Shown: one piece after another, positions 37,915 through 38,244 of the stretch
How positions within the stretch are numbered: position 1 is the stretch's first letter
How the letters are laid out: the number at the start of each line of letters is the position of its first letter
Assembly (NCBI RefSeq): GCF_011045215.1
Contig: NZ_CP049201.1
DNA: 64,000 nucleotides
From: Escherichia coli
GTDB taxonomy: Bacteria; Pseudomonadota; Gammaproteobacteria; Enterobacterales; Enterobacteriaceae
Direction: 5' to 3' (one strand)
The notes under the pieces: model-generated
The model's input: the letters and a program-made list of their open reading frames with translations, nothing else
Databases searched by the model: none
Told to the model about the DNA's origin: nothing
Position numbers and translations under genes: made by a program

Positions 37915-37959
37915 TAGGAGACCAGAAACAAAAAAACACCCGCTAGGGTGTTCAATAAT

Positions 37960-38036
37960 TGGTTGCGGGGGCCGGATTTGAACCGACGACCTTCGGGTTA
38001 TGAGCCCGACGAGCTACCAGGCTGCTCCACCCCGCG
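37960..38036 (-). tRNA. metZ: initiator tRNA-fMet (anticodon CAU), single copy
   Basis: Reverse complement reads CGCGGGGTGGAGCAGCCTGGTAGCTCGTCGGGCTCATAACCCGAAGGTCGTCGGTTCAAATCCGGCCCCCGCAACCA (77 nt, CCA end); hairpin plus T-run terminator on the minus strand at about 37925-37955. Confidence 0.95.
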
Positions 38037-38244
38037 TCCGTGGATGCGCACTATACTCCGCTCGCGTTTTCATGCAACCTTTTTTTTACCCCGATCACGG
38101 ATCTGGCATGATTTTGAACAAAAACAAATCACTAAAGCCTATTTTTTGTGCAAAATTTGCGTCAGGGAGAGGCTGCTCATTTCATTAAACGCGGTGGTTT
38201 GTTATCTTCGTTGCGCCTTATTTTTTAACCTGAAGAAGAGAACA

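What the first reader, a model, noticed from the sequence alone, without database searches (positions are those of the whole stretch)
37920..38244. Only one initiator tRNA-fMet gene where K-12 has three tandem copies
The amiC-mltA spacer (359 bp) contains a single 77-nt tRNA-fMet gene of the fMet1 type on the minus strand, with its own hairpin terminator. In K-12 this locus carries three tandem copies (metZ, metW, metV). Copy number of initiator tRNA affects growth rate and translation initiation capacity, and tandem arrays expand or contract by recombination.
Basis: partly seen in the sequence, partly recalled or inferred. Interest (0 to 1): 0.45.

Follow-up and report, generated by a model that had tools for sequence, protein, structure and literature searches.

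The report
Contracted initiator tRNA gene array
This E. coli sequence has one initiator-tRNA gene where the K-12 reference has three in a row, but the same one-copy form appears in about 4% of finished E. coli genomes (in some of them probably as an assembly error), so it is an ordinary copy-number variant and not a discovery.

Summary
The 359-bp amiC-mltA spacer holds one 77-nt initiator tRNA gene (37960-38036, minus strand). It is identical to K-12 metZ/W/V (G46, fMet1 type) and has a hairpin terminator and an upstream region identical to K-12. K-12 MG1655 has three copies; the window equals the K-12 spacer minus two 110-bp units. It is not unusual. Of 5,426 complete E. coli genomes, about 215 (4%) show the same one-copy structure, 245 lack any inter-tRNA junction, and others have two or up to about seven copies. 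Sister species have 2-4. Whether the window's single copy is biological cannot be settled without reads. Two same-clone comparisons disagree: J53 has 1 versus 3 copies, and O104:H4 2011C-3493 has 1 versus 3 in C227-11. Single-copy calls also cluster by sequencing project, so some are probably artefacts. However, matched control arrays (glyVXY, valUXY) are reduced to one copy 8-15 times less often, so most metZWV contractions are probably real. Best reading (about 0.6): a real contraction by recombination between identical repeats, lowering initiator tRNA dosage. Main rival (about 0.35): assembly collapse. Low interest; already known kind.

The parts
37960..38036 (-). Single initiator tRNA gene (tRNA-fMet1; CAU anticodon, C1-A72 mismatch, three G-C pairs in the anticodon stem, G46, encoded CCA), identical to K-12 metZ/metW/metV
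   Evidence: ARAGORN; Rfam RF00005 61.4 bits with the 1-72 pair flagged non-standard; exact string match to the three K-12 copies
37924..37953 (-). Intrinsic terminator of the operon: stem-loop GAACACCC-TAGC-GGGTGTTT followed by a T-run. It corresponds to the terminator after metV in K-12, with one loop SNP
   Evidence: Terminator scan; alignment of trailers
38037..38101 (-). Leader and promoter region, identical to K-12 over the 65 nt upstream of the tRNA. By inspection, -10 TATAGT lies at 38055-38050 and a candidate -35 TTGCAT at 38077-38072 (16-nt spacer), preceded by an A-tract
   Evidence: Sequence identity to the K-12 leader. The promoter scan tool did not call it because the -35 matches only 3 of 6. 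Promoter-down mutations at and just upstream of the -10 of the metZWV promoter are described in PMC3017606. The hexamer assignment is my inference
37887..38245 (.). Whole amiC-mltA intergenic spacer, 359 bp: the K-12 spacer (578 bp) minus two 110-bp tRNA+spacer units
36633..37886 (+). amiC (flanking gene, intact, protein identical to the common allele)
38246..39342 (+). mltA (flanking gene, intact, protein identical to the common allele)

Best explanation
The locus is the metZWV initiator-tRNA operon in a contracted, one-gene form. Shown: promoter region, one tRNA-fMet1 gene and terminator are intact and collinear with K-12, and exactly two 110-bp units (77-nt tRNA plus 33-nt spacer) are missing. 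Inferred: the ancestral E. coli array had three copies, and unequal homologous recombination or replication slippage between the identical 77-nt repeats removed two of them. This may have gone through a two-copy stage, since the closest complete genome has two copies. The deletion endpoints cannot be mapped because the repeats are identical. Expected consequence, from the literature and not tested here: tRNA-fMet levels follow gene copy number, so this operon should supply roughly a third of the K-12 amount. With metY, which lies outside the window, the genome would have two initiator genes instead of four. Published deletion work predicts slightly slower growth in rich medium, cold sensitivity and lower initiation fidelity when initiator tRNA is scarce, and a possible advantage in poor medium. 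This is a recurrent polymorphism of E. coli, not a lineage novelty.
For: Structure. Three copies is the majority state across divergent backgrounds: 5,181 of 5,426 genomes have at least one inter-tRNA junction and the median genome has 4 initiator genes. Three-copy loci from divergent lineages share the same two distinct spacers, so the triplication is old. The closest complete genome, FDAARGOS_943 (99.0% over 24 kb), has two copies. The one-copy structure occurs in 108 genomes with the K-12-type trailer and 107 with the island-type trailer. The matched control arrays glyVXY and valUXY, with the same three identical ~76-nt genes and similar or longer exact repeats, are reduced to one copy in only 14 and 26 genomes. 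A general assembly artefact therefore cannot explain most metZWV cases. Copy number also differs among sister species at 2-4. Dosage effects: PMC3017606, PMC9981150 citing Samhita 2014, PMC11480407.
Against: No reads are available, and a collapsed assembly would give exactly this sequence. Both same-clone comparisons I could make were discordant. J53 CP028702 has 1 copy and J53-p1-pV-hybrid-1 CP068706 has 3. O104:H4 2011C-3493 has 1 copy and also a collapsed glyVXY, while outbreak isolate C227-11 has 3. One-copy calls cluster by sequencing project, for example five consecutively accessioned genomes of different haplotypes (CP067232-CP067250) and at least 18 AVS genomes. They also co-occur with collapsed control arrays more than chance predicts: at least 4 versus 0.55 expected, and at least 6 versus 1.03 expected. 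The only public runs of the window's own lineage (Logan SRR11014969 at 100% identity, ERR3329057 at 99.9%) give contigs that stop before the tRNA.
Confidence: 0.6

Rival explanations
1. Assembly collapse: the strain really has two or three tandem copies, and the assembler took the path leader-tRNA-trailer, skipping the short spacer loops. The single copy is then a property of the file and not of the organism.
For: Same-clone discordances: J53 has 1 versus 3 copies, and O104:H4 2011C-3493 has 1 versus 3 in C227-11, with glyVXY also collapsed in 2011C-3493. One-copy calls cluster strongly by sequencing project. The TUM project accounts for half of all glyVXY collapses and several valUXY and metZWV ones. 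The overlap between arrays exceeds chance. One enriched project used Unicycler hybrid assembly (PMC7643976).
Against: The longest exact repeat in the array is 87-95 nt, no longer than in glyVXY (about 101 nt), yet metZWV is reduced 8-15 times more often. In the heavily enriched AVS project the order met >> val > gly mirrors the global order and does not follow assembly difficulty. The window assembly runs continuously through an IS200 copy and REP repeats where k=31 Logan contigs of the same strain break, so it resolves larger repeats.
Confidence: 0.35
2. Ancestral state: one copy is the original condition in this rarely sampled lineage, and the three copies of K-12 and most E. coli are a later expansion.
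For: The window's lineage is rarely sampled. The best complete genome is only 99.0% identical, and the exact RecD is found in a single public run. Sister species E. albertii and E. whittamii have two copies, not three.
Against: Three copies with the same two distinguishable spacers occur across divergent E. coli backgrounds at 97.3-98.7% identity to the window, including ST131, K-12 and O104:H4. One-copy genomes are scattered inside lineages that otherwise have three. No representative of a related species found in the array scan has fewer than two copies, although that scan cannot detect single copies. The nearest relative has two.
Confidence: 0.04

Closest known systems
metZWV operon of E. 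coli K-12 (metZ, metW, metV; tRNA-fMet1)
   Same: Same chromosomal position between amiC and mltA, identical 77-nt tRNA sequence, identical 65 nt upstream (promoter region), and the same terminator with one loop SNP.
   Different: One gene instead of three; two 110-bp units are absent.
One-copy metZWV alleles already deposited in complete E. coli genomes (e.g. GF3-3, PapM-32-1, GF66.2, Xuzhou21, K-12 C3026, J53)
   Same: The same leader-tRNA-trailer structure at 99.0-99.5% identity over 197 nt, with two initiator tRNA places per genome.
   Different: None is identical to the window and none is a close relative; the best complete genome is 99.0% identical and has two copies. Some of these deposits are probably assembly artefacts.
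Other tandem tRNA arrays of E. coli (glyVXY, valUXY)
   Same: Three identical ~76-nt genes with 35-46-nt spacers under one promoter, which also occur in one-copy form in some genomes.
   Different: They are reduced to one copy 8-15 times less often than metZWV: 14 and 26 genomes versus about 215 of 5,426.
Experimental initiator-tRNA gene dosage series (Kapoor 2011; Samhita 2014) and tRNA gene copy-number flexibility in Pseudomonas fluorescens SBW25
   Same: The same principle: tRNA gene copy number sets tRNA level and changes readily by recombination, with growth-condition-dependent fitness effects (PMC3017606; PMC9981150; PMC10954465 listed).
   Different: Those are engineered or laboratory-evolved changes. 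Here it is a naturally occurring, or assembly-derived, allele with no phenotype data.

Membership tests
Bacterial initiator tRNA (tRNA-fMet) | CAU anticodon in a tRNA cloverleaf | tested here: met
   ARAGORN tRNA-Met (cat); Rfam RF00005 61.4 bits versus gathering score 29
Bacterial initiator tRNA (tRNA-fMet) | [quoted passage not shown] | tested here: met
   The Rfam alignment marks pair 1-72 as non-standard (C...A)
Bacterial initiator tRNA (tRNA-fMet) | Three consecutive G-C pairs in the anticodon stem | tested here: met
   The sequence UCGGGCUCAUAACCCGA shows GGG/CCC closing the anticodon loop. The feature definition follows PMC3017606
tRNA-fMet1 isoform (metZ/W/V type, as opposed to metY fMet2 of K-12) | G rather than A at position 46 | tested here: met
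   The variable loop reads AGGUC. The gene is an exact match to all three K-12 metZWV genes. The A46 definition of fMet2 follows bioRxiv 10.64898/2026.04.16.719103
metZWV operon | Position between mltA and amiC, transcribed divergently from mltA | tested here: met
metZWV operon | Single upstream promoter and a terminator after the last gene | tested here: met
   65 nt upstream are identical to K-12; the terminator hairpin is found. Promoter activity itself was not tested
metZWV operon | Three tandem identical genes | tested here: not met
   One gene only. This makes it a contracted allele of the operon, not a different locus
Genuine (in vivo) copy-number contraction | Read depth and spanning reads consistent with one copy | not testable with these tools
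   No reads are available. Logan contigs of the same strain (SRR11014969) end at 35004 and 39502 and do not cover the locus

The most novel reading that the evidence does not exclude
Contraction of the initiator-tRNA array is not neutral noise. It is recurrently selected in E. coli living or stored under slow-growth, nutrient-poor conditions. metZWV is found in one-copy form 8-15 times more often than architecture-matched tRNA arrays, and a large share of the one-copy genomes listed come from wastewater, river and surface-water isolates. This would fit the experimental finding that losing initiator tRNA genes helps in poor medium. The window's strain would be one more instance.
Probability: 0.2. 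Interest if true: 0.5.

Novelty: already known. Interest (0 to 1): 0.17.

Why it matters
If real, the strain has half the usual number of initiator tRNA genes. Published work links that to growth rate in rich medium, cold tolerance and start-codon fidelity, but the effect is modest and the allele is common. The more useful lesson is practical. Copy number at short tandem tRNA arrays in deposited 'complete' genomes is unreliable, because the same strain can appear with 1 or 3 copies, so tRNA-gene-count comparisons between strains need read-level verification. The 8-15-fold excess of metZWV contraction over matched arrays is a small, testable lead about selection on initiator tRNA dosage.

Tried and rejected
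1. Counting copies from the number of inter-tRNA junction hits. Rejected as a copy-number measure: strain 2013C-4225 has three annotated genes but gave one junction hit. Only presence or absence of a junction was used.
2. Finding independent assemblies of the window's own lineage through exact-protein look-ups.
   - RecD: one Logan contig that ends just after recD.
   - CsdA and TcdA: Logan contigs that start at 39502.
   - ArgA: the common allele, not lineage-specific.
   - The first CsdA query had wrong minus-strand coordinates.
   None of these covers the tRNA locus, so collapse could not be tested.
3. The hypothesis that identical inter-tRNA spacers make metZWV uniquely collapsible. Rejected: the spacers differ in every three-copy locus examined, and the longest exact repeat is 87-95 nt, shorter than in glyVXY.
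4. A general pipeline artefact as the sole explanation. Rejected for most cases: the most enriched projects (AVS, WP, GF, CP0672xx) are absent from the 14 glyVXY-collapsed genomes, and only a few of their genomes appear among the 26 valUXY-collapsed ones.
5. Clonal inheritance as the sole explanation. Rejected: ST131 JJ2434 has 3 copies and ST131 2017_APHA has 1 with identical flanking proteins, and the J53 and O104:H4 pairs are discordant.
6. The sigma-70 scan did not call the promoter. I rely on identity to K-12 instead.
7. An Rfam scan at relaxed threshold found nothing else in 37400-38700.
8. Samhita 2014 (PMC4097586) and Withers 2006 (PMC1464854) are not held. Samhita 2014 is cited only through a paper that summarises it.
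9. The first guess at C227-11 coordinates missed the locus.

Full report
OBSERVATION. The window contains exactly one tRNA gene, a tRNA-Met (CAT) at 37960-38036 on the minus strand. Rfam scores it as a tRNA at 61.4 bits and marks the 1-72 pair as non-standard (C opposite A). The anticodon stem carries the three consecutive G-C pairs typical of bacterial initiators. Its 77 nt are identical to each of the three K-12 genes metZ, metW and metV, including G46, which defines the fMet1 isoform. A hairpin with a T-run lies directly after the tRNA (37953-37934). The 65 nt upstream of the tRNA are identical to K-12. By inspection they contain TATAGT and TTGCAT hexamers, consistent with the published metZWV promoter, in which mutations at and just upstream of the -10 abolish expression (PMC3017606). 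The simple promoter scan did not call this site.

COMPARISON WITH K-12. NC_000913.3 carries metZ, metW and metV with a 110-bp period in a 578-bp mltA-amiC spacer. The window's spacer is that spacer with two 110-bp units (77-nt gene plus 33-nt spacer) removed. Leader and trailer are collinear apart from a few SNPs.

WHAT THE ORGANISM IS.
- The window is E. coli, but from a rarely sampled lineage.
- The best of 5,426 complete genomes (FDAARGOS_943) is only 99.0% identical over 24 kb and has two copies at this locus.
- The exact RecD protein occurs in one public run only. Logan contigs of SRR11014969 match the window at 100% over 23100-35004 and 39502-42551.
- These contigs stop at repeats before reaching the tRNA, so they cannot show how many copies the reads support.

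HOW COMMON IS ONE COPY?
- A 197-nt probe made of 60 nt leader, the tRNA and 60 nt trailer is covered at 80% or more in 108 genomes. All listed hits have one piece and only two initiator-tRNA places in the genome, namely this one and metY.
- Many E. coli carry an island (PTS genes with or without a type VI secretion cluster) between the last tRNA and amiC. The equivalent probe with that trailer finds another 107 genomes.
- Together this gives about 215 of 5,426 genomes (4.0%). That agrees with the 245 genomes (4.5%) that lack any inter-tRNA junction.
- Two-copy arrays also exist (FDAARGOS_943, DH5-alpha CP076470, L018).
- The mean is 3.95 initiator genes per genome, the minimum 2 and the maximum 8.
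- Among species representatives, E. albertii, E. whittamii and Salmonella enterica subsp. arizonae and diarizonae have two tandem copies, the E. coli representatives three and Tatumella saanichensis four.
- Variation of plus or minus one copy in tRNA genes among E. coli strains is already in the literature (PMC4539685).
The one-copy state is therefore neither rare nor new.

REAL OR COLLAPSED? A collapsed assembly and a true deletion give the same sequence, so I looked for indirect evidence.

Evidence pointing towards artefacts:
- One-copy calls cluster by sequencing project. At least 18 AVS genomes are affected, as are five consecutively accessioned genomes of different haplotypes (CP067232, 235, 241, 245, 250). 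The chance of the latter is about 1e-7 at the background rate. The WP, GF and TUM series are also enriched.
- Two same-clone checks were both discordant. J53 CP028702 has one copy, while an independently assembled J53 derivative (CP068706, chromosome only 96 bp longer) has three. O104:H4 2011C-3493 has one copy and also a collapsed glyVXY, while outbreak isolate C227-11 has three.
- One-copy metZWV genomes overlap with genomes whose glyVXY or valUXY arrays are reduced to one copy more than chance predicts: at least 4 versus 0.55 expected, and at least 6 versus 1.03 expected.

Evidence against artefact as the main cause:
- glyVXY is an almost perfect architectural control. It has three identical 76-nt genes, 35-36-nt spacers and a longest exact repeat of about 101 nt, against 87-95 nt in metZWV. 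It is reduced to one copy in only 14 genomes, and valUXY in 26.
- metZWV is thus reduced 8-15 times more often.
- The most enriched projects are absent from the 14 glyVXY-collapsed genomes.
- Within ST131, JJ2434 has three copies and 2017_APHA one, with identical neighbouring proteins. Such scatter is expected from recurrent contraction under weak selection as well as from error.
My reading is that most deposited one-copy arrays are real, a minority are artefacts, and the window cannot be assigned with certainty.

MECHANISM AND CONSEQUENCE.
- Inferred: recombination or slippage between the identical 77-nt repeats removed two units. Three copies with the same two distinguishable spacers are found in divergent backgrounds, so three is ancestral for E. 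coli and one is derived.
- From the literature: tRNA-fMet levels follow gene number. Loss of metZWV gives cold sensitivity, a mild growth defect and initiation by non-initiator tRNAs (PMC3017606). Deleting metZWV strongly impairs growth in some conditions (PMC11480407). Losing some initiator genes is harmful in rich medium and helpful in poor medium (Samhita 2014 as summarised in PMC9981150).
- A one-copy strain should therefore have reduced initiator supply, with modest, condition-dependent effects. None of this was tested here.

VERDICT. This is a known locus in a known, recurrent allelic state. Probabilities: real contraction about 0.6, assembly collapse about 0.35, ancestral single copy about 0.04. 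The one mildly interesting by-product is the locus-specific excess of contraction at metZWV over matched arrays, together with many water-derived isolates among the one-copy genomes. That could reflect selection on initiator tRNA dosage, but it is confounded by project effects.

Noticed in passing
window 42528-43232: An IS200 element (Y1 transposase on the minus strand, NCBIfam NF033573, 147.7 bits) is inserted in the ygdI-gcvA spacer. It is absent from the closest complete genome (FDAARGOS_943) but present at the same site in the 99.9%-identical Logan contig of ERR3329057 (L016), so it is a lineage marker.
   Followed up: partly
window 34978-35100: The recD-argA spacer is about 81 bp longer than in FDAARGOS_943. 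A REP-like palindrome is flanked by a second ~40-nt copy of the argA 3' end (34978-35018 versus 35059-35100). Logan contigs of the same strain break here, at 35004.
   Followed up: partly
L018:4270-4346 (GCA_053879715.1): In this two-copy array the promoter-distal initiator tRNA gene carries C17 to T in the D-loop (GCAGCTTGG instead of GCAGCCTGG). A position-17 variant of metW in Nissle 1917 is mentioned in bioRxiv 10.64898/2026.04.16.719103.
   Followed up: no
L009-L014, L022, L023 (related E. coli loci): Many E. coli carry an island between the last tRNA-fMet gene and amiC. It holds PTS, aminotransferase, SIS and 2-hydroxyacid dehydrogenase genes, with or without a type VI secretion cluster. 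The window lacks it and has the K-12-type junction.
   Followed up: partly
Public records CP028702 vs CP068706; NC_018658 vs CP011331: Nominally the same strain or clone is deposited with different initiator tRNA counts. J53 has 1 versus 3 copies. O104:H4 2011C-3493 has 1, with glyVXY also collapsed, versus 3 in C227-11. K-12 derivatives are deposited with 3 (MG1655), 2 (DH5-alpha) and 1 (J53, MC1061, C3026, MG1655p) copies.
   Followed up: yes
E. coli genome collection: One-copy calls at tandem tRNA arrays cluster by sequencing project: AVS, WP, GF, CP0672xx and TUM. TUM genomes make up half of all glyVXY collapses. TUM2826 is one-copy at metZWV, glyVXY and valUXY. The cause (pipeline, strain handling or ecology) is unresolved.
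   Followed up: partly
window 39343-39580 (mltA-tcdA spacer): This spacer is 238 bp in the window and K-12 but 76 bp in O104:H4 C227-11 and ST131 genomes. Logan k=31 contigs of the window's lineage break at 39502, which suggests a repeated (REP-type) element is present here.
   Followed up: no
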